Source: Minisyncoccota bacterium (GTDB lineage: Bacteria; Patescibacteriota; Minisyncoccia; Phycocordibacterales; UBA2100). Taken from it: DNA of 64,000 bases. Location of the stretch: contig OZ253947.1 in NCBI GenBank assembly GCA_965267345.1, positions 573,043 to 637,042 of the forward strand, given 5' to 3'. The position numbers were made by a program, and so were the translations under genes. Below, piece by piece: positions 6,475 to 61,016 of the stretch (its first letter is position 1; the number at the start of each line of letters is the position of its first letter). The notes beneath the pieces are model-generated. The model did no database searches. It was not told where the DNA came from and was given only the letters and a program-made list of their open reading frames with translations.

Positions 6475-6490
6475 AACGTGCGCAACTGTA

Positions 6491-7934: not shown

Positions 7935-7966
7935 ACCCAGACACTATATCAGAAACAGAGCGTACG

Positions 7967-7997: not shown

Positions 7998-8019
7998 TTG
8001 GGGGCTTAGTCGCTCCATG

Positions 8020-8093
8020 TGGGCGCTGAGGGACTCGAACCCCCGGCCTACTCGGTGTAAACGAGTTGCTCTAGCCAACTGAGCTAAGCGCCC
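8020..8093 (-). tRNA. tRNA-Val (anticodon TAC)
   Basis: 74 nt with anticodon loop TTTACAC. No encoded CCA. Confidence 0.85.
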
Positions 8094-8138
8094 GATGCAC
8101 AAGAGTATATAGCTTTGCACTCAAAATACAATACTCCA

Positions 8139-9158: not shown

Positions 9159-9192
9159 GATGTGGCGTATGATACCACACGACACGAACACG

Positions 9193-9358
9193 AAACCGCT
9201 ATTTTGACGTCAAAATAGCGGTTTCGCACCTTGCACGAGGACCGCCCTCGTGCAAACAGAACGACTACGCACCCCATATACAATTGCATACAAGGTCGGT
9301 CCTTGTATGCGAGGGCGGGAGCAAGAAACGCAAAACACTAGGGGCATGCCCTAGTGTT
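9193..9358. repeat. array of four consecutive perfect palindromic hairpins
   Basis: The four hairpins are 9193-9224 AAACCGCTATTTTGACGTCAAAATAGCGGTTT, about 9232-9254, about 9286-9310 and 9334-9358 AACACTAGGGGCATGCCCTAGTGTT. They lie between tRNA-Arg(TCT) and the antiporter gene. Confidence 0.6.
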
Positions 9359-43972: not shown

Positions 43973-46435
43973 ATGCGCCTCATAAAACGGATTCCGATTA
44001 AACAGGTGCTCCTCGTGAGTATCGCGGCATCGCTGCTTATTGCCAGTGCGATTTTTGTGTGGGTCGCCACACTTGAAATACCGACACTCGACGGTTTTGA
44101 AGAACGCACCATCACTCAGTCAACAAAAATCTATGATCGCACTGGTGACGTGCTCCTCTTTGATCTCCACCAAGACATTCGCCGCACTGTCGTGCCGCTT
44201 GAGGATATGTCACGCCACCTCAAAAATGCCACCATCGCGATTGAGGACGCTGAGTTTTATGAGCACAACGGCATTCGCCCGATGCGCACACTGAAAGCCG
44301 TGTACGATAACGTCGTTACGGGCGACTTGCTCGGCGGACAGGGTGGCTCAACTATCACACAGCAAGTGGTGAAGAATACGCTCCTCACGACTGACAAGAC
44401 AATTACACGTAAAGTAAAAGAGTGGATCCTCGCGCTAAAAATTGAGCAGATTCTCGCCAAAGACGACATCCTCGAGCTCTACCTCAACGAAGTACCCTAC
44501 GGCGGTAACATTTACGGTGCAGAAGAGGCGGCGAAACATTTCTTCGCTACATCGGCGGAAGAGCTCACACTGGTTGAGTCGGCGTACCTTGCGGCACTTC
44601 CGCAGGCACCGACGCGGTACTCGCCCTACGGCAATCACACCGACTTACTCGAGGAGCGTAAAAACCGCGTACTGCAGCAAATGCTCGAGAACGGTTTCAT
44701 CTCACCCGCTGAGTACGAAGAGGCCGTCGCAGCCGAGGTAGTCTTTGAACAGTACGGCGACACAAACATCAAAGCGCCGCACTTTGTGTTCTACATTCGT
44801 GAACAGCTCGAGGAAACGTACGGCCGCGAAGCGCTCTACGAAACAGGGCTGAAGGTTATCACAACCCTCAACTATGACCTCCAGCAGGCAGCTGAGGAGG
44901 TTGTTACTGAGTACGCGTACCAAAACGAAGAAGATTTTAACGCTGAAAATGCAGCGTTAGTTGCGATTGACCCGCAGACGGGTCACATTCTGGCGATGGT
45001 CGGTTCGCGCAACTACTTTGATGAAGACATCGACGGAAAATTTAATGTGGCAACCGCGCATCGCCAACCCGGTTCAACCTTTAAACCAATTGTCTACGCC
45101 ACCGCTTTTGAGCAAGGTTTCACCCCTGAAACCGTTGTTTTTGATGTGCCGACGCAGTTCTCAGTCAATTGTGAGCCAACGAACTTCAGCAGCACTGATG
45201 GCTGCTACTCTCCTGTGAACTACGACGGTGTGTTTCGTGGCCCGATGACCTTTCGTGACGCACTAGCGCAGTCGATTAACATCCCTGCGGTAAAGGCACT
45301 GTACTTGGCCGGCATCGGAAATGCGCTGACCAATGCGCGAGAGCTTGGTATTTCAACACTTACGAAAGCGCCGCGTGACTACGGACTTCCCCTCGCGCTT
45401 GGTGGTGGTGAAGTCTCACTACTTGAGCTCACGAATGCGTATGCTGCGCTCGCAAATGACGGGGTGCGGCACGAACATACCGGCATTATTCGCGTCGAAG
45501 ACGCTGCCTCGGGTGAGGTGCTTGAGGAGTACGATGAAGAGGATGTGGGTGATCAAGTTATCGCCTCTCGTGCGGCACGCCTCACCACAAGCGTGCTTAC
45601 CGACATCCAAGCGCGTGAACCGGCGTATGGTCGTAACTCGTTCTCGTTTGGGAGACAGGCGGTAGGCGTGAAAACTGGTACGACCAACGACTACCGTGAT
45701 GTGTGGATTATGGGCTACACACCGCGCATCGCTGTCGGTACGTGGGGTGGTAACAATGACAACTCCCCTATTGTAAAGCGTGTTGCAGGATTCGTACTGG
45801 CGCCAATGTGGCGTGCATTTATGGACGAGGCACTCACTATTGTGCCGTATAGTGAATTCTCTGCACTTGAGGTAGACGAAGAAGAAACCGCACTCAAGCC
45901 GGTGCTGCGAGGATTCTGGCAAGGCGCAGCGACCACAACACCTACCACGCAACCAAGTGTGCACTCTATCCTGCACTGGGTTGATAGGAGCAACCCACGC
46001 GGACCGGTGCCGAGTGATCCATCTCGCGATCCGCAGTATGTAAACTGGGAAACTGCTGTGCGTATCTGGGCACAAGAAAATGCACCACAGCTCGTCGGTA
46101 GTGGGACATTTCCAACACCTCAATTCCCACAAAACGGTACAACGCCGACAACCACCCAAGGTGAGCCATTTAGTCTCACCTACCCAGCACAGAACATGCA
46201 GCATCGAGCAGGAACACCACTTACGGCAACAGTTGGTGCGCGTGCTGATATTGAATTAGTCTCAGTGGAGTACTACCTTAATGGCGCCTACATGGGTTCG
46301 GCAACCGGCGCGCCGTTCTCAATCTCACTCGTGCCTCAGTACACCGGCACGGGTGCACACACACTCACGGCAGTTGGCTACACTAAAAATGCAGAAACTT
46401 TTACGCAGCAGGTGACATTCCATGTGACACAGTAG
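43973..46435 (+). CDS. class A penicillin-binding protein (glycosyltransferase + transpeptidase)
   Basis: GT51 motifs (EDAEFYEHNGI, ..GGSTITQQ..), transpeptidase STFK, SxN and KTGT motifs, plus a C-terminal extension. Confidence 0.9.
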   Translation: MRLIKRIPIKQVLLVSIAASLLIASAIFVWVATLEIPTLDGFEERTITQSTKIYDRTGDVLLFDLHQDIRRTVVPLEDMSRHLKNATIAIEDAEFYEHNGIRPMRTLKAVYDNVVTGDLLGGQGGSTITQQVVKNTLLTTDKTITRKVKEWILALKIEQILAKDDILELYLNEVPYGGNIYGAEEAAKHFFATSAEELTLVESAYLAALPQAPTRYSPYGNHTDLLEERKNRVLQQMLENGFISPAEYEEAVAAEVVFEQYGDTNIKAPHFVFYIREQLEETYGREALYETGLKVITTLNYDLQQAAEEVVTEYAYQNEEDFNAENAALVAIDPQTGHILAMVGSRNYFDEDIDGKFNVATAHRQPGSTFKPIVYATAFEQGFTPETVVFDVPTQFSVNCEPTNFSSTDGCYSPVNYDGVFRGPMTFRDALAQSINIPAVKALYLAGIGNALTNARELGISTLTKAPRDYGLPLALGGGEVSLLELTNAYAALANDGVRHEHTGIIRVEDAASGEVLEEYDEEDVGDQVIASRAARLTTSVLTDIQAREPAYGRNSFSFGRQAVGVKTGTTNDYRDVWIMGYTPRIAVGTWGGNNDNSPIVKRVAGFVLAPMWRAFMDEALTIVPYSEFSALEVDEEETALKPVLRGFWQGAATTTPTTQPSVHSILHWVDRSNPRGPVPSDPSRDPQYVNWETAVRIWAQENAPQLVGSGTFPTPQFPQNGTTPTTTQGEPFSLTYPAQNMQHRAGTPLTATVGARADIELVSVEYYLNGAYMGSATGAPFSISLVPQYTGTGAHTLTAVGYTKNAETFTQQVTFHVTQ

Positions 46436-46437
46436 TG

Positions 46438-46698
46438 TTAGTAAATAGCGCTGATGCAGTACGGATCCCCCAGATCTTTTTGCACACGTTCGAGAATATC
46501 GCTCTGGTGAAGGTGTATTTCGCTTTTAATCGTTGATGATGTTGAGAGGCGTACGGTTTTGTTACGTATATGCACCTGATCCTCAGGTATATCTATTTCG
46601 AGCACGTCACGAACTGCGGTGATAAACGCCTCGCGCACAACACGCTCAGGTGCTTTAAGATTTGTGTACCGCTGGAGAAAACCGCTGACTAAACGCAT
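46438..46698 (-). CDS. dciA: DUF721/DciA-like protein
   Basis: 86 aa directly downstream of dnaN, the characteristic DUF721 position. Confidence 0.55.
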   Translation of the reverse strand: MRLVSGFLQRYTNLKAPERVVREAFITAVRDVLEIDIPEDQVHIRNKTVRLSTSSTIKSEIHLHQSDILERVQKDLGDPYCISAIY

Positions 46699-46701
46699 AT
46701 A

Positions 46702-47814
46702 CTAGCGATTCATTGGCATCACCAAGTAGGTAAACGATTGATCGCCGACTGGGGTAATAATGAGTGGTTTTCCGACGCCGGCAAATGAGAGCGTGAGGCT
46801 GTCAGTCGGTATCGACTGGAGACAGTCGGCAACGTAGCGGTGGTTGAAGCTGATATCAAGCTCTGCACCAGTGAGTGTCGCCTCGAGTGAGTCAAATACC
46901 TCGCCAACATCTGCATTACGTGCGCTCATGGTGAATGTTTTCTTTTCTGGATACACATGAAGAGTGATCTGTCCGAATTTATCTGAAAAAATATGTGCTT
47001 TTTTGAGCGTATTTGCAAAATCCTCTTTTAAAAGTACGGCTTCAGTAGTGGTGTCTTTCGGAAGAATACTTCGATAGTCAGGGAATGAGCCGTCAATAAT
47101 ACGGGAGGTAATAAAGAGTGTATCCGTCTGTACTGAAAACTGATTCTCATCAATAAATACGATAAGTTCTTCGTCTGTTTTAGTATCGAGGATACGCATT
47201 AACTCAGTGGTATTTTTTGCAGGCATAATGACTGTAGGAATGTCACTATCTTCTTCACCGACGCGGTGTGGGATTTTCTTTTCTGCAAGACGAAATGAGT
47301 CGGTTGCGACAAAAAAGAGGTGATCATCCTCATGGTACATATACACACTCGCGAGTTCAGGCTTAATGAGTGAGGTTGAGGCGCTATAGAGAACCGAGCG
47401 CACACCGCTTATAAGCTTTGTCTGCTGTATTTTATACGCGGGAGCTGTTTCAGGACGTGGAATTGAAGGAAAATCCTCATATGGCACTGTTTTGATTGTT
47501 GTTTTTGCACCACCTGACGTCACCACAATCGTCCCGTCACGCTCCTCAATAGTAAGTGTGGTCGCTGATGGTGATGTTTTAAGTGTTGAGAGAAGTGTGT
47601 GTGCAGGAACAGCAACCACCCCCTCCTTCTCTACATCAACAGAAAAGGTTTTCTCAATACCGATTTCAAGGTTTGTTGCTTTTAATACAACTGTGTCTTT
47701 TTGCACATCGAATACCACACAACGAAGTACCGGAAGTGTTGCTGACTGAGCGACAATACGCGACGCGGTGTCCACAGCAGTTTCAATATCTTTTTTTAAA
47801 CACTTTAATTTCAT
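46702..47814 (-). CDS. dnaN: DNA polymerase III beta sliding clamp
   Basis: 370-aa three-domain clamp. Position downstream of dnaA. Confidence 0.9.
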   Translation of the reverse strand: MKLKCLKKDIETAVDTASRIVAQSATLPVLRCVVFDVQKDTVVLKATNLEIGIEKTFSVDVEKEGVVAVPAHTLLSTLKTSPSATTLTIEERDGTIVVTSGGAKTTIKTVPYEDFPSIPRPETAPAYKIQQTKLISGVRSVLYSASTSLIKPELASVYMYHEDDHLFFVATDSFRLAEKKIPHRVGEEDSDIPTVIMPAKNTTELMRILDTKTDEELIVFIDENQFSVQTDTLFITSRIIDGSFPDYRSILPKDTTTEAVLLKEDFANTLKKAHIFSDKFGQITLHVYPEKKTFTMSARNADVGEVFDSLEATLTGAELDISFNHRYVADCLQSIPTDSLTLSFAGVGKPLIITPVGDQSFTYLVMPMNR

Positions 47815-48060
47815 AGTTTTTTATTTTTTTCTTACGAACACCCTTATTAGTGCTGTGTGTATGTGCAGAAACACGTAATCCTCTGTGTTTCTGCACTCTC
47901 ACCACTAGAACTCGTGTGTGCTATCTGTGAACAAAGAAGGAACAGAACTGGGTATAACAACAGTGTATACCATTTGGGTGCATGAGGTGGGTATAACTCC
48001 TATGGTAGTACCCATGATTATCACCATCACACCCCAACACTTATACACAGAGAACTGAAC
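47815..48060. other. oriC part 1: AT-rich unwinding element plus DnaA-box-like 9-mers between dnaA and dnaN
   Basis: The T-rich stretch TTTTTATTTTTTCTTA sits next to the dnaN start. TTATACACA at 48041-48049 is a 1-mismatch DnaA box. Confidence 0.65.
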
Positions 48061-49425
48061 CTAATTGTGTATAAGTGTTCGGACATGATTAACCTCTTGG
48101 TCGAGGATTGGGTCAATCTTTATCTCCCCTTTCACCTTCTCACATGAGTGAATTACTGTTGTGTGGTCACGGCCACCAAGTTTTTCTCCAATACTTGGAT
48201 AGGAAATACCAAAATCTTCACGCAGGATGTACATAATGACCTGTCGCGGACGCACCACCTCTTTCTTACGCGTCTTTTTATAGATGTTTTGCTCATCTAC
48301 TTCGTAGTATTCTGCGATTTTCTTCACAACATCAACCACCGAAATATTTTTATTCGGTTTTGTGGTGTTCTTCACCACATTTTGTACCTCCTGTGTACTG
48401 AGCTCCTTACCCTTAAGTTGTGTTTTGCACATAAGGGTGTTTAAAAGCCCCTCAAGCTCACGAATGTTACCTGGAACTTCTTTTGCCATGTACTCAATTA
48501 CGTCTTGGGGCACTAAAAAGTCGTGCTGCCGTGCTTTCTCGCGCAAAATTTCAATACGTGACTCCACATCAGGGTTTGGGATCTCAGCGATCATACCGGC
48601 GCTAAACCGCCCGCGTAGGCGGTCTTCGAGTCCAAGAAGGTTATTCGGGTGCTTATCTGACGAGAAGACAATTTGTTTGTTGTTGTCGTAGAGTGCATTA
48701 AAGAGATGGAAAAGCTCTTCTTGGGTGCGCTCTTTATCGGCAACAAATTGAATGTCGTCCATGATTAGTACGTCATACTGACGGTACTTGTCTTTAAAGG
48801 TATTTCCCTTCCCTGTTTTAATCGCATTAATGAAGTCCATCACAAATCGCTCCGAGGTGACGTAAAACACCTTCCGATTCGAGTTGGTTTTCTTTAAATG
48901 GTTGCCAATCGCCTGTATCAGGTGGGTTTTACCATGTCCTGTCGCACCGTAAATAAAAAGTGGGTTGTAGGTCAGGCCTGGATTTTGAATAACCGCCTGA
49001 GCTGCGGCGTGCGCGAGCTGGTTGAAGGGGCCGACAACAAACGTATCAAAAGTGTAGCGCGGGTTAAGGTTGTCACGTCGGTCAATAAACATGTCCTGCA
49101 ACGGCATCTGATTCTGCGGCGTGGTGGTCTGTGTTGGAATACGTTGTTCCCCTGCAGCCTTTTTTGCCGCATTCTTCGTCACCACATACTCGATACCGCG
49201 GATTCTATCTTCGAATCCACGCAGTGTTTTTAAAAGAAACTTGTGATGCTTCTCTTGGAGCCAGTCTTTAACAATTTTATTTGGAACGCCGATAAATACG
49301 ATGCCCGCGTCGCGCTTAATGATGATGGTGTCCTTAAACCATGTGCGAAAACTTGCCTCTGATGTGTTCATTTCAATATGAACGAGCGTGTTTTGCCACA
49401 ATTCTTGGTCACTCAACATACGCAA
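48061..49425 (-). CDS. dnaA: chromosomal replication initiator DnaA
   Basis: AAA+ Walker [11 protein letters not shown], sensor motifs and a C-terminal DnaA-box-binding HTH (..[10 protein letters not shown]..). Confidence 0.95.
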
Positions 49426-49706
49426 AGTTTCCGTATTATATACAAGCTCTGTGGATAAGTAAAAAATGCCTCAAAATGCACTTCTATGTGGATAGTGTGG
49501 GGATAAGTAATGACGTGTACCCTACCTCACGTTTATCGCAGGTGGTGCTTACGGACAAAACTCTTAACGAGAGAGCCGTTGATACACCTGTTGCGGCGTT
49601 TATCATGACTCCGCCGACAAAAAGCAGCTTTTACATGTATGTGTATAGTAGTATCTCTATCCACAGAGTATTGCTTTTTGTCTGTTTTTGCGTAGTATGT
49701 GTCCCC
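49426..49706. other. oriC part 2: DnaA-box cluster upstream of dnaA
   Basis: Perfect TGTGGATAA at about 49450. Near-consensus boxes TGTGGATAG and TGGGGATAA at about 49487-49505. CTATCCACA at about 49666. Confidence 0.7.
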
Positions 49707-49847
49707 ATGTCAACAAAGCGAACATATCAACCAAAAAAGCGAAAGCGCCAGCGAAAGCACGGCTTTCTTTCGCGCACACTTACTGCAGCAGGTCGTCGCG
49801 TGCTACGCGCACGCCGTCGTCGCGGGCGCAAGTCTCTCGCGGTGTAG
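49707..49847 (+). CDS. rpmH: 50S ribosomal protein L34
   Basis: [46 protein letters not shown]. The track ORF was a longer upstream frame. Confidence 0.9.
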
Positions 49848-49907
49848 GAATCGTTTTGTTACCTCTCTTTCAAACAGTGTACGGGTACCGTACACTGTTT
49901 TGGTATA

Positions 49908-50234
49908 GTGCCTATGCTCAGTAAGAAGAACCGCGCCACAACACACGACATACGCGAAACACTCGGCCGACGGCATACGACACGCCACGGCTCGCACCTG
50001 TCACTGCGCTACTCACACGAGCACATCGATGCGCCACTGTGTAGTGTTGTTGTCTCAAAACGCGTCGCTCGCACCGCTGTCGCTCGCAATGCGCTCAAGC
50101 GCAAGCTCCGCGCCGCACTCAAAGAGATCGAGCACCTTCTCCCCCGCCGCACCATCATCGTGTACGCAAAAACAACAGCGCGGGATTTGTCGGTGCGGGA
50201 AGCCGCGACGGAGATACTCAACCTACTCGCGTAG
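49908..50234 (+). CDS. rnpA: ribonuclease P protein component
   Basis: Basic 108-aa protein following rpmH, with ..KRVARTAVARNALKRKLR.. RnpA motif. Confidence 0.8.
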   Translation: MPMLSKKNRATTHDIRETLGRRHTTRHGSHLSLRYSHEHIDAPLCSVVVSKRVARTAVARNALKRKLRAALKEIEHLLPRRTIIVYAKTTARDLSVREAATEILNLLA

Positions 50235-50285
50235 AGCGTTTACTTCGCCCATACTCTGCGCTACTATGCGTCGGTACTCACTACT

Positions 50286-51023
50286 ATGTTTAATACGTTC
50301 ATCTACACACCCCTGTATAACGGCCTCATCCTCTTCATCGATTTTGTGCCGTATGCCGATGTGGGCATCGCTGTTATTTTGCTCACGATTCTCGTAAAGC
50401 TCATACTCTTTCCACTGGCGCACAAGGCAGCGCACACACAAGCGCGTATGCGCACCATGGCGCCGCTCATTGAGGAGCTCAAGGAGACCTATAAAGATGA
50501 CCGTCAGCAGCAGACGCTGAAAATGATGGAGCTGTACCGTGAGCATAATGTACGGCCATTTTTTAGTCTGCTCACTATCCTCATTCAACTCCCGATTATT
50601 CTCGGGCTGTACTGGGTCTTTTTTAAGGGTGGTTTGCCAACCGTTAATCCCGACATACTCTATAGCTTTGTGCCGTTTCCCGATAACGTGAATATGCAAT
50701 TTCTCGGCCTCATTGACATGGGAAGCCGCAGTCTCCTTTTGGCAGCACTTGCCGGTCTGACACAGTTTGTGCACACCTACTTTGCGCTGCCGGCACCGGC
50801 AAAGCGCAGCGAGAATCCGTCACTTAAAGAAGATTTGGCGCGCAGCTTCCACCTTCAAATGAAATACGTCATGCCGATCATTGTTGCCGTGGTCGCCTAC
50901 ATCATCTCAGCCGCCATTGCACTCTACTGGATTACCAGCAACCTCTTTGCTATCGGCCAAGAGCTTATGGTACGCCGCCAAATTGCGAAAGCTGAGAATA
51001 CATCCGCGCATGACAACACATAA
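50286..51023 (+). CDS. yidC: membrane protein insertase YidC (short form)
   Basis: Five TM helices with the YidC/Oxa1 core pattern. Position after rnpA. Confidence 0.85.
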   Translation: MFNTFIYTPLYNGLILFIDFVPYADVGIAVILLTILVKLILFPLAHKAAHTQARMRTMAPLIEELKETYKDDRQQQTLKMMELYREHNVRPFFSLLTILIQLPIILGLYWVFFKGGLPTVNPDILYSFVPFPDNVNMQFLGLIDMGSRSLLLAALAGLTQFVHTYFALPAPAKRSENPSLKEDLARSFHLQMKYVMPIIVAVVAYIISAAIALYWITSNLFAIGQELMVRRQIAKAENTSAHDNT

Positions 51024-51456
51024 CGACATACAAACATTTATTGAAACACTTTTAACGAAACTCGGTGTTACCTTTGAGCGCATTGAGCTCGTTGAAGTTG
51101 CCGGCCAACAGCTATTTGAAATTCACACGGACGACAGCGCACAGCTGGTCGGAAATAAAGGAGCCACAATACGGGCGATAAACCACATTGTTAAGAAAGC
51201 GTTTGATGGTGACGACGCGCCCCGCTTCTCTATCGATGTAAACGGATACCAGACAAAGCGCATTGATGAGCTGAAAGAGACAGCGCGACTCTTGGCCGAT
51301 CGAGCGCGATCGCTTAAGTACAATGTTGAAATGAACCCCATGAGCTCGTATGAACGCATGATTGTTCATGCAGCGCTCACTGACGAGCCCGAAGTTACGA
51401 CTGAATCACAAGGTGAAGGACGTGAACGCCGCGTTGTCATTCGCCATACCGGCTAA
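51010..51456 (+). CDS. jag: Jag/KhpB-like RNA-binding protein (KH + R3H domains)
   Basis: ..GNKGATIRAINHIVKKA.. (KH) and ..MSSYERMIVHAALTD.. (R3H). Start trimmed to MTTHNDIQ. Confidence 0.8.
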   Translation: MTTHNDIQTFIETLLTKLGVTFERIELVEVAGQQLFEIHTDDSAQLVGNKGATIRAINHIVKKAFDGDDAPRFSIDVNGYQTKRIDELKETARLLADRARSLKYNVEMNPMSSYERMIVHAALTDEPEVTTESQGEGRERRVVIRHTG

Positions 51457-52247
51457 TTTGCGGTAGTGCATCGGCGCGCACCAATAGCTCCTCCATCGCG
51501 CGCGAGTGCCTCATCACAGAGGCTTTTTGATGTAGCGCAATGAAAACCACGCCCATCTTGATAGCACCACATTCCCGTCACATCTTCCTGTACTATCTCC
51601 CGTTGTGTGTAAAACGTTGTACCGCCGATGTTCGTGGTTGTGTTTGCCGTAAGTGGGAGTGCACAGCAAAGGTCAGACGCGCTATTTCCAATATTGCCAC
51701 ACACATTCGCATCTGCAGAAACCCAGTCAGAGCCTCGTGCAGCACATCCCTGACTGCGCGGCGTCCAGCGGGCATCTTGGTATTGTGTGCCGTACGCATT
51801 CGGCCCGACACGATTCGTAGGACCTGTGTAAGGGGTATACTCGCTTGTAGTGCGTTCAATTGTTGCACTCGGCAGTAAGAAGTTAAGTTTTAATATATCG
51901 GGATTGATTTGATTGAAAAAAAGCCAAATACCCAGCAGCATAATGAGCCCTAACACTGCTTGTCGGATGCGCTCGACACTCTCTTTTTTCCCCGAAACGG
52001 CGTCAGTGGTCATGTACTGCAACCCAGCAGTAGCGATAATAATGACCGCCAAGGAGCTGCCGATAGCAAGCGCCAAACTGAAGAGGTTGTTAAAAAAGCC
52101 CACCAAACCCTGCTGGCTAATGAGATTTGTCGCAAAATCAGTAAGCCCTTGGAAGTTACTGAGTTCTTGCGCGTATACCGCAGTCGGTAGTGCGGTAAGC
52201 GCAAACAGTGCAAAAGCGTATGTCAGGTTACGATGTTTCATTTTCAT
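51453..52247 (-). CDS. VirB2/TrbC-like pilin candidate with Cys-rich C-terminal extension
   Basis: Signal peptide (MKMKHRNLTYAFALFALTALPTAVYA), then two hydrophobic helices separated by a short loop, then a roughly 150-aa Cys-rich region. The pilin call rests on topology only. Confidence 0.4.
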   Translation of the reverse strand: MKMKHRNLTYAFALFALTALPTAVYAQELSNFQGLTDFATNLISQQGLVGFFNNLFSLALAIGSSLAVIIIATAGLQYMTTDAVSGKKESVERIRQAVLGLIMLLGIWLFFNQINPDILKLNFLLPSATIERTTSEYTPYTGPTNRVGPNAYGTQYQDARWTPRSQGCAARGSDWVSADANVCGNIGNSASDLCCALPLTANTTTNIGGTTFYTQREIVQEDVTGMWCYQDGRGFHCATSKSLCDEALARDGGAIGARRCTTAN

Positions 52248-53478
52248 TGTCAGGTGTTGGCAGTAGCAGCGACCACAGCGTTTGGTCGGTGCGATTGGTA
52301 AAGAAGACAACATCACCTGTAGCATTAAAGAAAAGCTCTTCGGCTGCAAGTGTCGTATTTACTGATGACTGTGGTGAGAAGAGTTCAATCGCTTCAACAC
52401 CCTCATCGGTGACCATGAGTTGCCAGAACGAAGTAGCAAGCTGTACGCGTCCTTTGTACCAGTCGTCAGGGTAGCGCGCCTGTGGGAATGTTGTGGGTAC
52501 GGCGCAGATGGCATGTGCTGCATCTGTTGGGTTCCATGCACACAAACTCGCAAAAGTGCGCATCGGCAACTCAGTGCGCTCTCCTGACGCCCCTTGCACG
52601 AAAAGACGTGGTGCGGCGCCATCTTCCGCACTGGTGCTATACAAAAGCACGTCACCACTTGGGCTCATGCGCGTTTCAAGTGCACTGAGTCGTGAGATAA
52701 CGGGTGTTGCTGAACTATCTGCAAGACTGATGTGCACGGCAGTTCCCGTTACACCCGCTGCTGCGTGCTGCGTCAGCACTATGGTCTCATCATTCACCCA
52801 CGCCACGTGCCACGAGCGCAGTGTCGACTCCCACGCCACTTCTGCATTGGAGCCGTCAGCGTCAACGATGACGAGATTTGCCCCGCGCGATGTCGGCTGT
52901 ACGTAGGCAAGGCGTTGCGTGTCGGGACTGCGCGCAACGCTCCGTGTGTTTGGCGGAAGTGAGGTGGTGATGTCTGTGCTCCCCACAGGTTTAATGACGG
53001 AGATAAGTCGCTCGCGCTCATCGAGGTAGCGCAGTAGCACTGAGTCTGTGTCGTCAACAAACACTGCGTCGTAGACCTGTGGAATGGTTGTCTGTGCAAT
53101 ACGTTCTGTTTCCCCGCCGCGTTGTGGCCGCGAAAAAATGTGGCCGGTTGCGCGATCGACAAAGAGTACATCTGTCGGTGTTGTGGCCGCACCGGCAACG
53201 GGCAGGTTGTATACCTGTTGCAGCTGTATTCTATCGCGTGGTGATGTCGTTGTTGCTGCCGACGTGTCTAAATCAGTGTCAGTGTCGGTACCGAAGAATC
53301 CGCCAAAAAAGCCGCTCCCGCCACTTCCTCCTGCTCCTGTGCCGGTGTACCCGACGTCTTGTGTTCCTTCGCGGAGTTGCTGTTGCTGGGTACCAATAAA
53401 GAGTGCCCACCCAATAAGCGTCACAATCAGTACGATGACAACGGCGGCGGCAATGATGTAGATGGTTCGCGTATTCAT
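52228..53478 (-). CDS. hypothetical N-terminally anchored protein, beta-rich (propeller-like)
   Basis: One TM helix and 416 aa. Part of the minus-strand T4SS-like cluster. Confidence 0.45.
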   Translation of the reverse strand: MNTRTIYIIAAAVVIVLIVTLIGWALFIGTQQQQLREGTQDVGYTGTGAGGSGGSGFFGGFFGTDTDTDLDTSAATTTSPRDRIQLQQVYNLPVAGAATTPTDVLFVDRATGHIFSRPQRGGETERIAQTTIPQVYDAVFVDDTDSVLLRYLDERERLISVIKPVGSTDITTSLPPNTRSVARSPDTQRLAYVQPTSRGANLVIVDADGSNAEVAWESTLRSWHVAWVNDETIVLTQHAAAGVTGTAVHISLADSSATPVISRLSALETRMSPSGDVLLYSTSAEDGAAPRLFVQGASGERTELPMRTFASLCAWNPTDAAHAICAVPTTFPQARYPDDWYKGRVQLATSFWQLMVTDEGVEAIELFSPQSSVNTTLAAEELFFNATGDVVFFTNRTDQTLWSLLLPTPDNENETS

Positions 53479-54978: not shown

Positions 54979-56835
54979 CTACTGGGTTGGAATATCGCGC
55001 GTCGGTGTCTGCTGCTGCGCGTCGGTGTCTGCCACTTCCTGCTTTGCTTTTTTAATTGCCAGAATTTGAGACGGGTCGGAGGTGATGATTTGGTCTTCGG
55101 TGTAACTGGCGATCACCTTAATGGCGACGTGTTTAAGGCCGGCAAAGAAAATGCCCTCCCCCACATCTGATTCAAGTAAAAGGTACTTTTCTTCGTCGGA
55201 GAGCTTAAAGGTTTCCTGAATCAGGTCAATCGAGGTCGGTGACTGACGTAGGAGAATCTGAATTGAGGAGTTAGTGATCATGGCTTTGCCGTACGAGCTG
55301 TTGAGGAAGTCGGCGACGTCTTGCGTGATGGTTGCCAGTCCGAGGTAGTACTTACGGCCACGCTTGGCAATACTGAAGAGGAATGAAGCGGTATCTTCTG
55401 ACTTCATCATCCACCATGCCTCGTCAATCACGAGCAGGCGTTTACGCAAATTTTTTCGCACCATGTTCCAGATATGGTGGGTCACGAGGTACATAGCAAC
55501 CGGCTTGAGCTCGTCTTCCATGTCGCGAATGCTGAAGACGACAAAGCGCTTGTTCATGTCGACATTCGTCGGTTGGTTGATGAAGCCCGCCCACGTACCA
55601 CGGGTATATTTCGACATGCGTTGCACGAGCGACTCAGATCCTTCCATACCCGAAAGCACGAGTTCAAAGTCTGAGAGCAGCGGCGGCTCAAGGTTCGTGA
55701 AATCAGAATCAGGGGTGATGTCTTTCAGTGCGTAGGTTTCCGTGATGGCGCGGTCGATAATCGCGTCTTCCTCAGGGGTGAGACCGCCGAGCATGATACG
55801 GAAAAGGCCGACGAGTGTGATGATGTTGTTGCGCAGCACGTCTCCCGGACTTTCGTCTTCACGCGGTACGGGTAAATCAAACGGGTTAATGTGGTGCTGG
55901 GACGAAAGTGAAATGTTGAAATAGCGCCCCCCTGTTGTTTCGGCAAGGTACTCGTACTCGCGCTCAGGGTCGATCACAATCACGTCTGCATCGAACATCA
56001 GTGAGCGAATAATCTCCAGCTTGGTCATGTACGACTTACCGGCACCCGACTTGGCGAATACGACTGAGTTGTAGTTTTCGAGACTAAAGCGGTCGAAGAG
56101 AACAAGGCTCGAGTTGTGGCGGTTAATACCGTAGAGAATACCGCGGTCGCTGGTGAGGTCGAATGAGATAAACGGAAAGATGCTCGACAGTGGTGACGAG
56201 TTGAGTTTTGAGTGCACGTCGAGCTCATCTCTGGCAATTGGCATGACGCTACGAAATCCGGGTTCCTGCTGAAACAGCGCCGGTTTGAGGTAGACAAGTC
56301 GCGACTCAAGAATGGAGCGAATCTCGGACTCCGCCTTATCAATTTCGTCGCGCGTATCGCCGTAAATGGTGAGGTAAAGACCGACTTCAAACATTTTCTC
56401 CTGTGCTTGTTGCAGACGATCACGGAGAAACTCAAGGTCGGAGTACGCGGTGTCGAGCATCGGGTCGCGCACCAGTCCCTTCTCCTCGCGGATAGCAATC
56501 TGACTCTCCACCTCGGCAACTTTCTTCTGGAATTTGCGCAACACCGTGGTGGTATCCATTGGGTGCACAAAAATAGACACATCAAACACCTTGTCGAGGT
56601 TGATGATTGGTGAAAACCATCCCGTTGTTAAGAAACGTGGATACGAAATCACAAAGAAGGTACGCGCCACCTTTTCGCCGAGGTTCAGTGCCCGTGGGGT
56701 AATCTGGAGTGCCGACGGCGCAATAACGTCTTGTAGCTCGAGAACGCCGTGTTTGTAGATCTCCTCGGGGAGAATCGGAATCGGCTCACGCGCATCCTCG
56801 TCCTTTTTCTTCGAGAAAAAATCAAACAACGCCAT
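54979..56835 (-). CDS. virB4: VirB4/TrbE/CagE-family type IV secretion ATPase
   Basis: Walker A ..VVFAKSGAGKSYMTK.., Walker B ..LLVIDEAWWM.., ..LGLATITQDVADF.. and a typical N-terminal domain (..LQITPRALNLGEKVARTFFV..). Confidence 0.85.
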   Translation of the reverse strand: MALFDFFSKKKDEDAREPIPILPEEIYKHGVLELQDVIAPSALQITPRALNLGEKVARTFFVISYPRFLTTGWFSPIINLDKVFDVSIFVHPMDTTTVLRKFQKKVAEVESQIAIREEKGLVRDPMLDTAYSDLEFLRDRLQQAQEKMFEVGLYLTIYGDTRDEIDKAESEIRSILESRLVYLKPALFQQEPGFRSVMPIARDELDVHSKLNSSPLSSIFPFISFDLTSDRGILYGINRHNSSLVLFDRFSLENYNSVVFAKSGAGKSYMTKLEIIRSLMFDADVIVIDPEREYEYLAETTGGRYFNISLSSQHHINPFDLPVPREDESPGDVLRNNIITLVGLFRIMLGGLTPEEDAIIDRAITETYALKDITPDSDFTNLEPPLLSDFELVLSGMEGSESLVQRMSKYTRGTWAGFINQPTNVDMNKRFVVFSIRDMEDELKPVAMYLVTHHIWNMVRKNLRKRLLVIDEAWWMMKSEDTASFLFSIAKRGRKYYLGLATITQDVADFLNSSYGKAMITNSSIQILLRQSPTSIDLIQETFKLSDEEKYLLLESDVGEGIFFAGLKHVAIKVIASYTEDQIITSDPSQILAIKKAKQEVADTDAQQQTPTRDIPTQ

Positions 56836-56883
56836 GAGGACATTATAGCGTACGTTACACGCTCATTAGAGAACTACTGGGCA

Positions 56884-57546
56884 CTACCGCTGGCGAGATA
56901 CCTCACTCGCCATCTGCGGCTTCTCCTGCTCTCCCGGGTTAAAGATCTTGTAGAGTAACTCAACGACCTCTTCGGTGTCGAGCTGTACGGTACGTACACC
57001 GGTACGCACCAATCCTTGCTGCACAATTGAGATACGCTGGTCGAGCTGTGAGACGTTTTCTTCGAACGTTGACTGATCGGTCGTGTCGCCCTCTTTGCCG
57101 CCGCCGACAAACGGAATGTTGCTCAAAATCCCTTTGTTGATTGCCAGTGGTGCAGGATCATACGGCACGACGACGAAAAAGTGTTTCGTCATGATGTTTG
57201 CGCCCTCAACGAAGCTGCGAATGAAGTCGATATACTCGCGAATTTGGATACGCATAAGGTCGTCCATGGTGTTTTTGTAGGCATCTTCGAGTGTCGCCAA
57301 ATAGGGACGAATATCAAGATCGCGTGACTGGATGTAGATCTGCACCGAGAAATCGAGTGAGTTAAAGAAGTTTTGGAATTGCACGATAAATGCGCTCTGC
57401 TCATCGTCACTTTTAAGGGCGAAGTTGAGTGATGACGCCATCAGTACGGCGCGCAAGCCACCGTCGCGAAGCATAACGACACCGTCGCGCACCTCTTTCA
57501 CAGGAACGAAATCTTGTGATGCTTGTGATGTAGTTTTGTTTGGCAT
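56884..57546 (-). CDS. stand-alone protein resembling the N-terminal domain of VirB4-family ATPases
   Basis: ..DFVPVKEVRDGVVMLRDGGLRAVLMASSLNFALKSDDEQ.. and ..SLDFSVQIYIQSRDLD.. parallel ..INLDKVFDVSIFVHPMD.. in the adjacent VirB4. No ATPase motifs. Confidence 0.45.
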   Translation of the reverse strand: MPNKTTSQASQDFVPVKEVRDGVVMLRDGGLRAVLMASSLNFALKSDDEQSAFIVQFQNFFNSLDFSVQIYIQSRDLDIRPYLATLEDAYKNTMDDLMRIQIREYIDFIRSFVEGANIMTKHFFVVVPYDPAPLAINKGILSNIPFVGGGKEGDTTDQSTFEENVSQLDQRISIVQQGLVRTGVRTVQLDTEEVVELLYKIFNPGEQEKPQMASEVSRQR

Positions 57547-57551
57547 ATTAC

Positions 57552-58004
57552 TTACGAGCGAGATGTGGCGTCAATGGTAGTCTCCGGCTGGCTGAGGCGA
57601 AGGCGTTCATTAATGTCGAGGCTCCACGCGAGTTCCTTCAGTTTATTCTCCGAGAGCGACGGAACGGGCACCTGACTCTCGGGCTGCACTTCGGCCTTTG
57701 TGGTGCGCTGCTGCTGTTTTTCCTGACGGTGGGCGTCCCAGAGGTAGAGTTTGCTGTGTACAAAGTACATGACACCCGCTTCCACCATTTCAATGAATGG
57801 CTTCTTGTTTATTTTAACAAATGCCAGCGCAACTGAGAGGCCCACTACTGCTGCGGCAATGGGGAGTGCGACAATGATCGGAAGTGCGCGCCAGATGAGA
57901 AATGCAAGACCGGCGCCACCCGCAAGGTAGACAAATTGTTTGAGCGTGAGCGGACCAAAAATCCGATCTTCCACTTCAATAAATTGCGGTACTTGGTACT
58001 GCAT
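57552..58004 (-). CDS. PrgI/VirB3-like small membrane protein
   Basis: N-terminus MQYQVPQFIEVEDRIFGPLTLKQFVYLAGG.. followed by two TM helices, the PrgI-family pattern. Confidence 0.6.
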   Translation of the reverse strand: MQYQVPQFIEVEDRIFGPLTLKQFVYLAGGAGLAFLIWRALPIIVALPIAAAVVGLSVALAFVKINKKPFIEMVEAGVMYFVHSKLYLWDAHRQEKQQQRTTKAEVQPESQVPVPSLSENKLKELAWSLDINERLRLSQPETTIDATSRS

Positions 58005-58030: not shown

Positions 58031-58534
58031 CTACTCAATTGATTCACGATACGGGTCATCCTGTACATCGCGTCGCTCGAGACTGCTCTCGCCGGAGCGA
58101 TACGCTAAGCTATCAGTCGGGCGCTGCTTTTGTTCGGTGGTCGTCTGCTCAACGGCGGCTGCCTCCTCGTGTTCAGCGTGTGCATCACGGCCGCTTTGGG
58201 TAAGTTCGCGCTGCATCTGTTCGCGAATAGGTTCAAAGACTTCGTCAACGATGTCGTTAACGATTGTTTGTGCCAGTTTTTTGTCGATAGAGAGCTCACG
58301 AGCGATATTGCTCGTCATCTCTTCCGGCTCAGCAATGCCGAGTAATACGAGCAGAATCTCATTTTCAAGCAGTACCCACTGATCGAGATGAAGCTTGTGC
58401 TTCTCGGCAAGAGCGCGCATGTGCTTTGAAATATCGGCATCTTCAATTGCGCGCTGGAGTGCTACAGGAAGCGCTGCGAAGCGCTCTTCAAGTATGGTGC
58501 TGCTGTTATTCTCGGTTTGTGTGTCTTTAGGCAT
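58031..58534 (-). CDS. hypothetical cytoplasmic protein in the T4SS-like cluster
   Basis: Start set at MPKDTQTENN, 1 nt after the VirB6-like stop. The track ORF overlapped the upstream gene by 170 nt. Confidence 0.4.
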   Translation of the reverse strand: MPKDTQTENNSSTILEERFAALPVALQRAIEDADISKHMRALAEKHKLHLDQWVLLENEILLVLLGIAEPEEMTSNIARELSIDKKLAQTIVNDIVDEVFEPIREQMQRELTQSGRDAHAEHEEAAAVEQTTTEQKQRPTDSLAYRSGESSLERRDVQDDPYRESIE

Positions 58535-58535
58535 A

Positions 58536-61016
58536 CTACTCGCTTGTGTCACTTCCCTTTTGGATTCTATCGAGGCGTTTTTTAATATCTTCGAGACTCT
58601 CACTTGTTGCATCAGTATCTTTTTCCTTTGCAAGTTTAGCAGCGACAGCCTTACGCATACTCCTTGAAGGACCACCGAAGAATCCTCCCTTTTCCTTGTA
58701 TTCATTGAGCGCTTGTTGGCGTGCTAGTTTTTTGTATTCTTCACGGTGTTGCGCTTTCTCTTCGGGTGTTTCTGTTTTTTGATGCTGTTCTTGACTACTC
58801 AGTGCTTCGTCTGCCATCTCTTGAGTCATTCGGTCTGAGGTACCTGCAAACGCCTCTTGCTCTTTTTGTGTTAATCCCTTTTGTACAGCAGCAGCCTGTT
58901 GTGCAATTGCGTCGTCTTCGCCTGCAATGTCATTGCGTTTACCCTGCCCTGTGGTGTCTTTTGGCGCAGGTGGCGCTTGTGGTGTTTCTGGCGCACGCAC
59001 ATCACCAGATGGTACATCTTGAGTTGGCGCTGCTGCGCCCGCGCCGCTTGCTGCAGGCTGTGCGTCGGTATCACGCTTCTGTGCACCTTCAAGTTCAGCG
59101 TTAATTTCATCTAACCGCGCGCTCTTTTCGAGTCGCTCCTCATCAGACAATGCACTCGCGTTCGGGCTGCTCGTTTCTTGTTCGAGCCGTGCGCGTTCTC
59201 TCTCGAGTGCGGCAATGTCCGTATCAGTTAGTGGATTGCGTGCGGATGGCACACCCTGTGCTCCTGATGCTTCTCGTTTCGCGCGTTCCGCAAGGCGGTC
59301 TATCTCGTTCCCTTTACCGCCTATCTCGTTTGCTTGTTTGCGCGCCGCGTTTTCTCGTTCATCATTTTCCGTCCCCTGTTGCGTTGCGGCGTCCACCTGC
59401 GGTTCGGTAATTCGGACAGACGGTGCTTTTGTGTCGCGCTTCTCACGTGCTGCCTCATCAGGCGTTGTTTCAGACGGCATACGCTGCGGCTGCGCAAGGC
59501 CCTGCTCGCGTTCTTTTTCTCTGCGGTCGTAGTCGCTCATAAGTTCCTCAAAGCGAGTGTCTACAGGCTTTCGGGCGTAATCGGCTTCCGTTTTGATGCT
59601 TGCATCGTAACTTGGTTTTTGCTCAGGTTGCTTTATACCCAGATTCTTACCAAGCTTCGTGGTGCGAGCATCAAATGAATAACGGGAAAGATTGTTGCCA
59701 AGTCGTAGTTTTGCACGAGTGGCGATACTGTCCTGTCCCGACGCAATCTTTTCATTCGCTTCGCGGCTCCACTTCACTCCACGACCACCTAGTGTACGTC
59801 GGCCAGCCCAGCCGCCCAGCGCGGCAAAGGCGCCGAACGGTGAAACACCCCACCCGAGCGACTTTCTCGACAGATCAGTGGCAAATTTGGCACCAAACAG
59901 TGACAGCGAACTGGCGATCTGCAAAGACGCATAAAACAAACCAACCACGATGAGCGCGACCATAAGAGGTTCCCATGAGCCAATGCCTAGGGAGTCGCTG
60001 CTGGTCTCAATTACTCTCGCAATATCACCGTCAGAGAGCGTATTTGCAATATTCGAGGAAGCCCATAGGAGGAGCATAAAGACGGGTGCAAATAGCGCAT
60101 TTTTAATCAACGCGCTCCACCACTGTCCCCACCACTGTCCACCCTGTTTCGGTACGAGGTATGCGGCAAATGCCAGTGCCGAGAGTACCATCAACAGTAA
60201 AAAGACAATAGCGCGCGACAGCAGCAGTATGGTGCCGAGGAGGAATACTGCAATAAGAAGTGCGTAGAATGTCATCATAATCAGCCCGTACATAAGCACT
60301 CCTTGGATGTCACTGATGCCAGTGAGGGCATCTTGGGCACCGGTAAACCCTACTCGACCAAGTCCTGATTTTTGCAGGAAGCCCTCGGCAATAGCGATGC
60401 GACCATCACTGTCTGAGAGGTTAATTGCTTGCACAAATTGCGTTGCCGTGGCATTGGATACGTCAATAATTGCTTGCGTGAAAAACAGACTAAAGTTAAT
60501 GAGCAACGCAATGAGTACGAGGCGGATAACGAGCTGCTTAATGCCGTAGCTTTGAATGTTGAGAATAACGAGAAAGGCAATAAACACGAACAGCGCAATC
60601 ATTACGATGTTCGCGATATCACGAAACCCTTCCCATGCCGTATCGATACCACCTTGGACCGCGCCAAGTAATTCAGGGTTACCAAAATTCACGACAGTGT
60701 AGTACACAGCGTAGTCAAAACCTTCGGCAATCACCAGCATAATGTTGCCAAACATACCTGAAAGAAGGATGACGATAGTTTTTAAGGCGCCGGTTATTAG
60801 TTCGTAAAGCCCTCCACCGAAATAATTTAAAGCTTTTTCGATTATACTGGCATCCTGATCAGTGGTTTCTGCCTGAGTTTGTGCGTGTGCAAAAGCGGGG
60901 GCAACTGCCGTCTCGCTCACGGTTAGTGGCGCAAACACAGCAGGCATAAGCAGTAGCACCATCATCACACCCGCTCCGATGCGTCGCCACCACGTATGTG
61001 TCACAAAATGCGCCAT
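58536..61016 (-). CDS. VirB6/TrbL-like polytopic membrane protein with long charged C-terminal tail
   Basis: Signal/TM start, about 8 TM helices in the first roughly 400 aa, then a roughly 400-aa E/K/R/Q-rich coiled-coil-like region. Confidence 0.55.
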   Translation of the reverse strand: MAHFVTHTWWRRIGAGVMMVLLLMPAVFAPLTVSETAVAPAFAHAQTQAETTDQDASIIEKALNYFGGGLYELITGALKTIVILLSGMFGNIMLVIAEGFDYAVYYTVVNFGNPELLGAVQGGIDTAWEGFRDIANIVMIALFVFIAFLVILNIQSYGIKQLVIRLVLIALLINFSLFFTQAIIDVSNATATQFVQAINLSDSDGRIAIAEGFLQKSGLGRVGFTGAQDALTGISDIQGVLMYGLIMMTFYALLIAVFLLGTILLLSRAIVFLLLMVLSALAFAAYLVPKQGGQWWGQWWSALIKNALFAPVFMLLLWASSNIANTLSDGDIARVIETSSDSLGIGSWEPLMVALIVVGLFYASLQIASSLSLFGAKFATDLSRKSLGWGVSPFGAFAALGGWAGRRTLGGRGVKWSREANEKIASGQDSIATRAKLRLGNNLSRYSFDARTTKLGKNLGIKQPEQKPSYDASIKTEADYARKPVDTRFEELMSDYDRREKEREQGLAQPQRMPSETTPDEAAREKRDTKAPSVRITEPQVDAATQQGTENDERENAARKQANEIGGKGNEIDRLAERAKREASGAQGVPSARNPLTDTDIAALERERARLEQETSSPNASALSDEERLEKSARLDEINAELEGAQKRDTDAQPAASGAGAAAPTQDVPSGDVRAPETPQAPPAPKDTTGQGKRNDIAGEDDAIAQQAAAVQKGLTQKEQEAFAGTSDRMTQEMADEALSSQEQHQKTETPEEKAQHREEYKKLARQQALNEYKEKGGFFGGPSRSMRKAVAAKLAKEKDTDATSESLEDIKKRLDRIQKGSDTSE

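What the first reader, a model, noticed from the sequence alone, without database searches (positions are those of the whole stretch)
56884..57546. Free-standing duplicate of the VirB4 N-terminal domain
The 220-aa ORF between the PrgI-like gene and virB4 carries the sequence pattern of monoderm VirB4 N-termini. Its VKEVRDGVVMLRDGGLRAVLMASSLNFALKSDDEQ and SLDFSVQIYIQSRDLD segments parallel the adjacent VirB4's LNLGEKVARTFFV..INLDKVFDVSIFVHPMD, and it has no Walker motifs. It is either a split-off or duplicated N-domain or a distinct T4SS component sharing that fold. I know of no standard T4SS nomenclature for it.
Basis: inference. Interest (0 to 1): 0.5.

Follow-up and report, generated by a model that had tools for sequence, protein, structure and literature searches.

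The report
Split-off front piece of VirB4
The 220-residue gene is not a spare copy of its neighbour's front end: it encodes the front ~200 residues that the neighbouring secretion-motor protein VirB4 lacks, made as a separate protein. This component is already described (TrsD/TraD, Pfam "TraC-like") and is common in these ultrasmall bacteria, so the finding is real but ordinary.

Summary
The ORF at 56884..57546 (-) is real and under purifying selection. It sits between a PrgI/VirB3-like gene and virB4 in about 77 of 80 related genomes.

It is not a duplicate of the adjacent VirB4 N-terminus. BLASTP gives E 0.73 and profile-profile comparison gives Prob ≤1%.

The two genes are complementary. 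On the full-length monoderm VirB4 profile (CD1110, 752 positions), the ORF covers positions 2-118 and the 618-aa VirB4 covers 184-733.

A whole lineage (Colwellbacteria-type, more than 115 protein clusters of ~790 aa) carries the two parts fused in the same order. A model of that fused protein superposes on full-length TrwK/VirB4 of plasmid R388.

The break falls at the same profile position in S. aureus pSK41 TrsD/TrsE, a Geobacillus plasmid and a haloarchaeal plasmid.

The protein already has names: TrsD/TraD, and Pfam PF26593 "TraC-like". Quiñonero-Coronel et al. 2025 report TrsD as the most abundant T4SS component in Patescibacteria, remotely homologous to the VirB4 N-terminus, with no assigned function.

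Most likely it assembles in trans with VirB4 and PrgI to complete the membrane-proximal N-terminal domain of the ATPase.

Verdict: already known, low-moderate interest.

One open lead remains. The VirB4 N-domain may be a tandem repeat of one α/β module, with the gene split at the repeat boundary.

The parts
56884..57546 (-). TrsD-like / 'TraC-like' (PF26593) protein, 220 aa. It is the free-standing first half of the VirB4 N-terminal domain. It is soluble and has no Walker motifs.
56836..56883 (-). 48-nt spacer between the ORF220 stop and the virB4 start. The virB4 ATG is in frame with ORF220, but the frame is closed three times: by ORF220's own TAG (56884-56886) and by TAA and TGA within the spacer.
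   Evidence: Sequence read. No terminator-like site on the minus strand here. In relatives the gap is 2-145 nt and the virB4 start falls in all three relative frames (30/25/25).
54979..56835 (-). Short-form VirB4 ATPase, 618 aa. It lacks the first ~180 profile positions of full-length VirB4. It begins with a short hydrophobic-basic peptide, MALFDFFSKKK.
   Evidence: Pfam P-loop_TraG, AAA_10 and DUF87. NCBIfam: CD1110 residues 31-571 map to positions 184-733 of 752; TraC-F-type residues 84-553 to positions 255-733; VirB4_CagE residues 84-555 to positions 269-726. It is 56% identical to residues 226-796 of fused P0243. The N-terminal peptide is conserved across relatives.
57552..58004 (-). PrgI-family (VirB3-like) membrane protein, 150 aa, immediately upstream. 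Its stop codon lies 5 nt before the ORF220 start.
   Evidence: PF12666, E 3.2e-8. Hydrophobic segment with KD19 2.6 at residue ~43. Conserved upstream of the ORF220 homologue in all 80 related loci, and in Geobacillus, C. difficile and pSK41 (as TrsC) contexts.
51453..52349 (-). T4SS pilin-like (VirB2-type) protein at the downstream end of the same minus-strand gene run.
   Evidence: PF18895 T4SS_pilin, E 8.6e-6 at 26.2 bits, just under the 26.6-bit cut-off. TrbC/VirB2 hit is weak.

Best explanation
ORF220 is the TrsD/TraD-type ('TraC-like', PF26593) component of the Patescibacteria/monoderm type IV secretion system. It is the first ~200 residues of the VirB4 N-terminal domain, encoded as a separate polypeptide. 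The adjacent 618-aa VirB4 is the matching remainder: the second half of the N-domain plus the ATPase domain.

Shown here:
- The two genes are complementary on full-length VirB4 profiles.
- They are fused and colinear in a sister lineage.
- The split is old, stable, under purifying selection, and falls at the same position in Staphylococcus pSK41, a Geobacillus plasmid and a haloarchaeal plasmid.

Inferred:
- The three adjacent genes prgI-ORF220-virB4 are co-translated from one transcript.
- ORF220 docks non-covalently onto VirB4 to rebuild a complete N-domain. In the R388 machine that domain is what VirB3 wraps around, and it mediates VirB4 dimerisation.
- ORF220 therefore links the ATPase hexamer to the PrgI/VirB3-like membrane anchor.
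For: Identity:
- P0001 (100% identical) and thousands of ~220-aa homologues carry PF26593 'TraC-like'.
- The NCBIfam TrsD family gives a weak hit.
- The published description of TrsD next to virB4 in Patescibacteria fits this locus.

Complementarity:
- ORF220 covers CD1110 positions 2-118 and VirB4 covers 184-733.
- Geobacillus pGspE55-1: the 318-aa protein covers positions 2-174 and the 636-aa protein starts at 183.
- pSK41 TrsE starts at position 183, and haloarchaeal pSTJ001 at 178.

Fusion evidence:
- P0243 (797 aa) equals ORF220 (38% identity, residues 1-214) plus VirB4 (56% identity, residues 226-796).
- It sits in the same PrgI...jag-yidC-rnpA-dnaA context.
- 118 of the 120 best-scoring clusters listed for P0243 (7,667 passed E <= 0.001) are fused, 775-807 aa, with PF26593 plus ATPase domains.

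Structure:
- The fused model aligns to full-length TrwK over 800-870 columns, TM 0.60-0.64, E 2e-26.

Real gene:
- Synteny holds in about 77 of 80 loci. Each has its own stop, and the virB4 start falls in all three relative frames.
- Third-codon-position differences are 0.61 against 0.24 and 0.15 at positions 1 and 2.

Role of the N-domain:
- In R388 the N-domain is residues 15-400. VirB3 wraps around it, and the dimer interface is entirely N-domain (PMC9259494).
- The T4SS gene cluster is essential in S. epibionticum (PMC10633639). The cluster's TrsD homologue is listed as essential according to PMC12102498.
Against:
- The ORF220 model is of modest quality (pLDDT 62), and TM-scores to TrwK are low (0.35-0.42).
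- The hit to the curated TrsD family is far below its cut-off (19 against 200 bits). hhalign of A1 against the single pSK41 TrsD sequence gives only Prob 3%.
- The local Pfam copy returned no hit, so PF26593 membership rests on precomputed annotation.
- The literature notes TrsD homologues not adjacent to virB4 in Gracilibacteria. In L018 virB4 lies on the other strand. Tight coupling is therefore not universal.
Confidence: 0.78

Rival explanations
1. Duplicate: ORF220 is a paralogous extra copy of the N-terminal domain that the adjacent VirB4 also carries.
For: The best, though weak, hhalign alignment reproduces one pair: ORF220 51-99 with VirB4 59-115.
Against: BLASTP E 0.73. hhalign Prob 1% and 0.6%. 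The two genes map to different, non-overlapping parts of every full-length VirB4 profile and of the fused proteins. The neighbour lacks the part ORF220 supplies, so nothing is present twice.
Confidence: 0.05
2. Pseudogene: ORF220 is a frameshifted or truncated remnant of a second virB4, or of the 5' end of the neighbouring one.
For: The virB4 ATG is in frame with ORF220 across the 48-nt spacer. One relative, L088, does show a degraded N-terminal part: residues 1-89 are in another frame and ~100 codons are missing.
Against: There are three in-frame stops between the two reading frames: ORF220's own TAG, then TAA and TGA in the spacer. Over 7,800 homologues are ~220 aa long. The two-cistron layout is conserved, with the virB4 start in all three relative frames. 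Purifying selection is strong. 2,816 clusters at 50% identity match the family. There is no second virB4 in the window.
Confidence: 0.01
3. Independent accessory factor: a VirB4-N-like protein that has acquired its own role and is not simply a structural piece of the motor. Possible roles are substrate or pilin chaperone, or a regulator of VirB4 oligomerisation.
Against: The partner VirB4 always lacks exactly this region. Fused forms show it works as part of one chain. The chaperone matches cover only ~80-90 residues of a low-confidence model.
Confidence: 0.12

Closest known systems
TrsD (pGO1) / TraD (pSK41) conjugative transfer protein, NCBIfam NF041427; the MPF_FATA 'TrsD' profile of Guglielmini et al. 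2014 as applied to Patescibacteria by Quiñonero-Coronel et al. 2025 (PMC12102498)
   Same: It is ~220 aa and is encoded between a VirB3-like gene (TrsC/PrgI) and a short VirB4 (TrsE, 672 aa). TrsE starts at the same CD1110 profile position (183) as the window's VirB4 (184). The literature calls TrsD remotely homologous to the VirB4 N-terminus and the most abundant T4SS component in Patescibacteria.
   Different: Sequence similarity is remote: 19 bits against a 200-bit cut-off, and hhalign Prob 3%. The system here is chromosomal, next to oriC, and the literature reports that most such Patescibacteria clusters lack a relaxase and many lack a nearby coupling protein, so it is probably not conjugative.
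Pfam PF26593 'TraC-like' domain
   Same: The identical database protein and all listed homologues carry this domain. In the fused proteins it is the N-terminal domain, ahead of TraC_F_IV and the P-loop domains.
   Different: None found. Here the domain makes up the whole protein.
N-terminal domain of full-length VirB4 (TrwK of R388, PDB 7O42/7O43/8RTD; CD1110-family VirB4 of Firmicutes)
   Same: Profile positions 2-118 of CD1110 and 8-159 of PRK13853 align to ORF220. TrwK is the top structural match. The fused homologue model matches TrwK end to end.
   Different: ORF220 is a separate polypeptide, covers only the first half of the N-domain, and has no ATPase domain.
Colwellbacteria-type fused VirB4 (P0243 and ~118 related clusters, ~790 aa)
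   Same: The same two parts occur in the same order in the same chromosomal context: PrgI upstream and jag-yidC-rnpA-dnaA nearby.
   Different: It is one reading frame with a short linker. The MALLDLFKKK-type peptide that heads the split VirB4s is absent.

Membership tests
Pfam PF26593 (TraC-like) | Significant match to the family HMM | tested here: met
   P0001, 100% identical over 220 aa, and all 120 listed homologues carry a precomputed PF26593.2 hit. The L001 homologue is labelled PF26593:TraC-like, unmarked, meaning E <= 1e-5. Caveat: the local Pfam-A hmmscan returned no family, so that copy apparently lacks this model.
NCBIfam NF041427 TrsD/TraD family | Score at or above the curated cut-off (200 bits) | tested here: not met
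   19 bits, E 9.7e-4, residues 8-127 on profile positions 13-142. pSK41 TrsD itself scores 227.6 bits. ORF220 is a remote relative, not a member by NCBI's threshold.
NCBIfam NF041427 TrsD/TraD family | Gene lies between a VirB3-like gene and a short-form VirB4 that lacks the first ~180 profile positions | tested here: met
   The window order is PrgI-ORF220-VirB4. pSK41 has TrsC-TrsD-TrsE. VirB4 starts at CD1110 position 184 here and TrsE at 183.
VirB4/TraC ATPase family (TIGR00929, CD1110 family) | Walker A/B P-loop ATPase domain | tested here: not met
   ORF220 has no P-loop, AAA_10 or DUF87 hit. Those domains are all in the neighbouring 618-aa protein.
VirB4/TraC ATPase family (TIGR00929, CD1110 family) | [quoted passage not shown] | tested here: met
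   [not shown]
Paralogous duplicate of the adjacent VirB4's own N-terminal region | Significant sequence or profile similarity between ORF220 and residues 1-250 of the neighbour | tested here: not met
   BLASTP E 0.73. hhalign Prob 1% and 0.6%, P 0.096.
Paralogous duplicate of the adjacent VirB4's own N-terminal region | Same 3-D fold in the two halves of the VirB4 N-domain (ancient internal repeat) | tested here: inconclusive
   The fused model shows the same order of 11 secondary-structure elements in residues 14-207 and 239-391.
Pseudogene / frameshifted virB4 remnant | Loss of coding constraint, variable truncation, or a single disrupting lesion | tested here: not met
   Codon-position differences of 0.24/0.15/0.61. 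Length is conserved at ~220 aa in thousands of homologues. The two-cistron layout occurs in all three relative frames. Three stops close the shared frame: ORF220's own TAG plus TAA and TGA in the spacer.

The most novel reading that the evidence does not exclude
The VirB4 N-terminal domain may be an ancient tandem repeat of one α/β module (βββ-α-β-αα-β-α-β-α). On this reading, the TrsD-type gene split, seen in Patescibacteria, pSK41-type plasmids, Bacillota megaplasmids and haloarchaeal plasmids, falls exactly at the repeat boundary. The free first module could be loaded onto the motor at its own stoichiometry. It might dock through the conserved MALLDLFKKK-type peptide that heads all split VirB4s and is missing from fused ones.
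Probability: 0.3. Interest if true: 0.45.

Novelty: already known. Interest (0 to 1): 0.25.

Why it matters
The T4SS-like cluster of Patescibacteria is essential for their epibiotic growth (PMC10633639), and TrsD is its most widespread component, yet it has 'no function assigned' (PMC12102498). Reading TrsD plus short VirB4 as one split VirB4 gives TrsD a concrete, testable structural role: the VirB3-proximal half of the ATPase's N-domain. It also means VirB4 length and domain content should be judged on the gene pair when annotating or building phylogenies. Natural fused and split versions provide ready-made constructs for testing the idea. This refines a known component and does not add a new kind of system.

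Tried and rejected
- Direct pairwise and profile comparison of ORF220 with the neighbour's N-terminus gave nothing significant.
- Local Pfam-A scan of ORF220 returned no family.
- phmmer and a profile search against PDB sequences found nothing relevant.
- hhalign of A1 against the single pSK41 TrsD sequence gave Prob 3%, uninformative with Neff 1.7.
- A literature search for 'PF26593' returned 0 papers. A search for 'TrsD' found no functional study beyond the Patescibacteria survey.
- Foldseek against afdb50, to ask whether short VirB4s lacking the TraC-like part are hit, could not run because the library was unavailable.
- Superposing the two halves of the N-domain was not possible because model coordinates are not exposed.
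- P0289, a 600-aa form 88% identical to fused P0243, was checked as a possible recent fission. It is a degraded gene or assembly lesion: residues 1-89 are in another frame and ~100 codons are missing.
- The promoter/terminator scan showed nothing above shuffle expectation around the gene.

Full report
**Observation**

The window holds an ATG-started 220-aa ORF at 56884..57546 on the minus strand. Its neighbours are:
- Upstream, 5 nt away: a 150-aa PrgI-family (VirB3-like) membrane protein at 57552..58004 (PF12666, E 3e-8; hydrophobic segment).
- Downstream, 48 nt away: a 618-aa VirB4 ATPase at 54979..56835 (P-loop_TraG E 1e-26, AAA_10, DUF87).

The virB4 ATG is in frame with ORF220. That frame is closed three times: by ORF220's own TAG and by TAA and TGA within the spacer. 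There is no terminator-like site between the genes on that strand. ORF220 has no ATPase-domain hit and no TM segment.

The whole minus-strand run ends in a T4SS-pilin-like gene at 51453..52349. It abuts jag, yidC, rnpA, and ORFs of the size and position of dnaA and dnaN in an AT-richer stretch, which places it next to the replication origin (compare L083).

**Is it a real gene?**

Yes.
- More than 7,800 database proteins match it, and the 120 listed are 209-238 aa.
- A profile search of 1.84 billion cluster representatives finds 2,816 clusters at E <= 1e-3.
- In 80 related species-representative genomes (Kaiserbacteria and other Paceibacteria), the order PrgI - ORF220 homologue - VirB4 is kept in about 77.
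- In those loci the homologue ends at its own stop, and virB4 starts 2-145 nt later in all three relative frames (30/25/25).
- Against the window's gene, codon positions 1, 2 and 3 differ at 0.24, 0.15 and 0.61. That is the signature of purifying selection on this frame.

The pseudogene idea is therefore refuted.

**Duplicate or split?**

Direct tests do not support that.
- BLASTP against the neighbour gives E 0.73.
- hhalign of a 94-sequence family alignment against the neighbour's first 250 residues gives Prob 1%.
- With more diverse alignments on both sides it gives Prob 0.6%, P 0.096.

The two proteins are instead complementary. On NCBIfam's full-length monoderm VirB4 model (CD1110 family, 752 positions):
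- ORF220 residues 11-126 cover positions 2-118 (E 6.6e-5).
- The 618-aa VirB4 residues 31-571 cover positions 184-733 (E 1e-109).

The VirB4_plasma, TraC-F-type and VirB4_CagE models show the same offset. There is no second virB4 or second copy of the ORF in the window.

**Fusion evidence**

The representative search turned up P0243, a 797-aa protein.
- Its residues 1-214 are 38% identical to ORF220 (E 1e-45).
- Its residues 226-796 are 56% identical to the window's VirB4 residues 30-599.
- It lies directly after a PrgI gene and close to jag-yidC-rnpA-dnaA-dnaN, the same chromosomal setting.

It is not a one-off. 118 of the 120 best-scoring clusters listed for P0243 (7,667 passed E <= 0.001) are 775-807 aa. 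They carry PF26593 together with the ATPase domains, and many are labelled Candidatus Colwellbacteria.

One of the two 600-aa exceptions, P0289, is a degraded copy, not a clean fission.

**Structure**

- The ORF220 model (26-sequence alignment) is of modest confidence: pLDDT 62.
- Even so, its top 14 Foldseek hits in the PDB are all TrwK/VirB4 of R388, with best E 7e-4.
- The fused P0243 model has pLDDT 74.5, with the TraC-like part mostly at 70-90.
- That model aligns to full-length TrwK over 800-870 columns, with TM 0.60-0.64 and E 2e-26.

So the ORF220-equivalent corresponds to the first part of the canonical VirB4 N-domain. In R388 the N-domain is residues 15-400. VirB3 wraps around it, and the VirB4 dimer interface is made entirely by it (PMC9259494).

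**The same split elsewhere**

tblastn against plasmids finds ORF220 homologues in Bacillus, Paenibacillus, Geobacillus, Clostridioides, an actinobacterium and haloarchaea.

| Context | Gene order | CD1110 profile coverage |
|---|---|---|
| Geobacillus pGspE55-1 | PrgI - 318 aa hypothetical - 636 aa DUF87 protein | 318-aa: 2-174; 636-aa: from 183 |
| C. difficile record | PrgI - 322 aa hypothetical - 640 aa ATP-binding protein | not scanned |
| Haloarchaeal pSTJ001 | homologue followed by an 853-aa VirB4 | VirB4 from 178 |
| S. aureus pSK41 | TrsC - TrsD (227 aa) - TrsE (672 aa) | TrsE from 183 |

The break point is thus conserved across very distant hosts.

All split VirB4s examined begin with a similar hydrophobic-basic peptide, which the fused proteins lack:
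- Window: MALFDFFSKKK.
- Relatives: MALLDLFKKKK.
- TrsE: MIMAFLKKKK.
- Geobacillus: MFKFKKEK.
- C. difficile: MFFKKKKEK.

**What is known**

- Pfam already has this domain as PF26593 'TraC-like'.
- NCBI names the staphylococcal protein family TrsD/TraD (NF041427). ORF220 hits it only weakly, at 19 bits against a 200-bit cut-off.
- Quiñonero-Coronel et al. 2025 (PMC12102498) state that TrsD is the most abundant T4SS component they recovered in Patescibacteria: 2,272 homologues, 1,664 of them next to virB4.
[quoted passage not shown] Southlakia epibionticum.
- They also describe the origin-proximal location.
- Wang et al. 2023 (PMC10633639) showed that the T4SS cluster is essential for epibiotic growth.
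- Neither the survey nor the T4SS nomenclature review (PMC12857230) mentions TrsD-VirB4 fusions or the complementary-halves reading. I could not search the subscription literature.

**Mechanism**

Shown: ORF220 and the neighbouring VirB4 are the two parts of one VirB4.

Inferred:
- The parts assemble in trans.
- ORF220 supplies the membrane-proximal half of the N-domain that contacts the VirB3-like PrgI protein. This is consistent with the gene order, with VirB3-VirB4 fusions at the VirB4 N-terminus in other systems (cited), and with VirB3 wrapping around the N-domain in R388.

The substrate of the whole machine is unknown. The literature argues against conjugation because most of these clusters lack a relaxase.

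**Open lead**

In the fused model, two regions have the same order of eleven secondary-structure elements, βββ-α-β-αα-β-α-β-α:
- Residues 14-207, the ORF220-equivalent.
- Residues 239-391, the start of the short VirB4.

So is the best weak hhalign alignment. The VirB4 N-domain may therefore be an ancient tandem repeat split at the repeat boundary. I could not superpose the halves, so this remains unproven.

**Verdict**

The ORF is real, and its VirB4-N-terminal character is confirmed. 'Duplicate' is wrong and 'split-off' is right. The component already has names (TrsD/TraD, PF26593) and has been reported in Patescibacteria. Novelty: already known. Interest: 0.25.

Noticed in passing
L039:5400-8969 (also L081 ~5666-9202 and L018 ~4240-680, minus strand): In three Kaiserbacteria-type relatives the virB4 reading frame is interrupted in frame at the Walker A P-loop (GAGKS) by a ~1.65-kb insert. 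Pfam calls the insert Intein_splicing (E 1e-15) plus a LAGLIDADG_3 homing endonuclease (E 1e-20), so it is an intein in VirB4. In L018 the virB4 gene also lies on the opposite strand from the TrsD-like gene.
   Followed up: partly
window 56790-56835 (-), first ~15 codons of virB4: All split-form VirB4s begin with a conserved hydrophobic-then-lysine-rich peptide. Examples: MALFDFFSKKK here, MALLDLFKKKK in relatives, MIMAFLKKKK in pSK41 TrsE, MFKFKKEK in Geobacillus, MFFKKKKEK in C. difficile. It is absent from the fused Colwellbacteria-type proteins. It may be a docking or membrane-binding peptide.
   Followed up: partly
window 46000-51500: The T4SS cluster abuts the likely replication origin. 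rnpA (49908..50234 +), yidC (50286..51023 +) and jag (50881..51456 +) are followed upstream by 454-aa and 370-aa minus-strand ORFs. These have the size and order of dnaA and dnaN in L083. G+C dips to 0.46 at 46-50 kb. This matches the origin-proximal placement reported in PMC12102498.
   Followed up: partly
window 58031-58705 (-) and 58536-61016 (-): The listed 224-aa ORF overlaps the end of the 826-aa ORF by 170 nt. In L001 the equivalent gene is 182 aa and starts just after the large gene. The true start here is probably an internal Met. Neither protein has a family hit, and the 826-aa protein has a long charged, low-complexity C-terminal half.
   Followed up: no
[not shown]
   Followed up: no
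L084:5896-6852, L086:5896-6864, L085:5638-6747: Firmicute and haloarchaeal homologues of ORF220 are longer (318-369 aa). The Geobacillus and C. difficile ones start with a hydrophobic, TM-like segment that the Patescibacteria protein lacks. The Firmicute loci also share a sigma-70 factor, a thioredoxin-fold protein and an M23 peptidase around the PrgI-TrsD-like-VirB4 core.
   Followed up: no
L088:1213-1668: In one Colwellbacteria-type MAG, the N-terminal TraC-like part of an otherwise fused VirB4 is degraded. Residues 1-89 are in a different frame and ~100 codons are missing, which leaves a called 600-aa VirB4. This is either an assembly lesion or real decay.
   Followed up: partly
P0195, P0177, P0219 (homologues of ORF220, 406-443 aa): Some free-standing TraC-like proteins carry 200-aa Pro/Ala/Gln/Thr-rich low-complexity C-terminal tails that are absent from the window's protein.
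   Followed up: no
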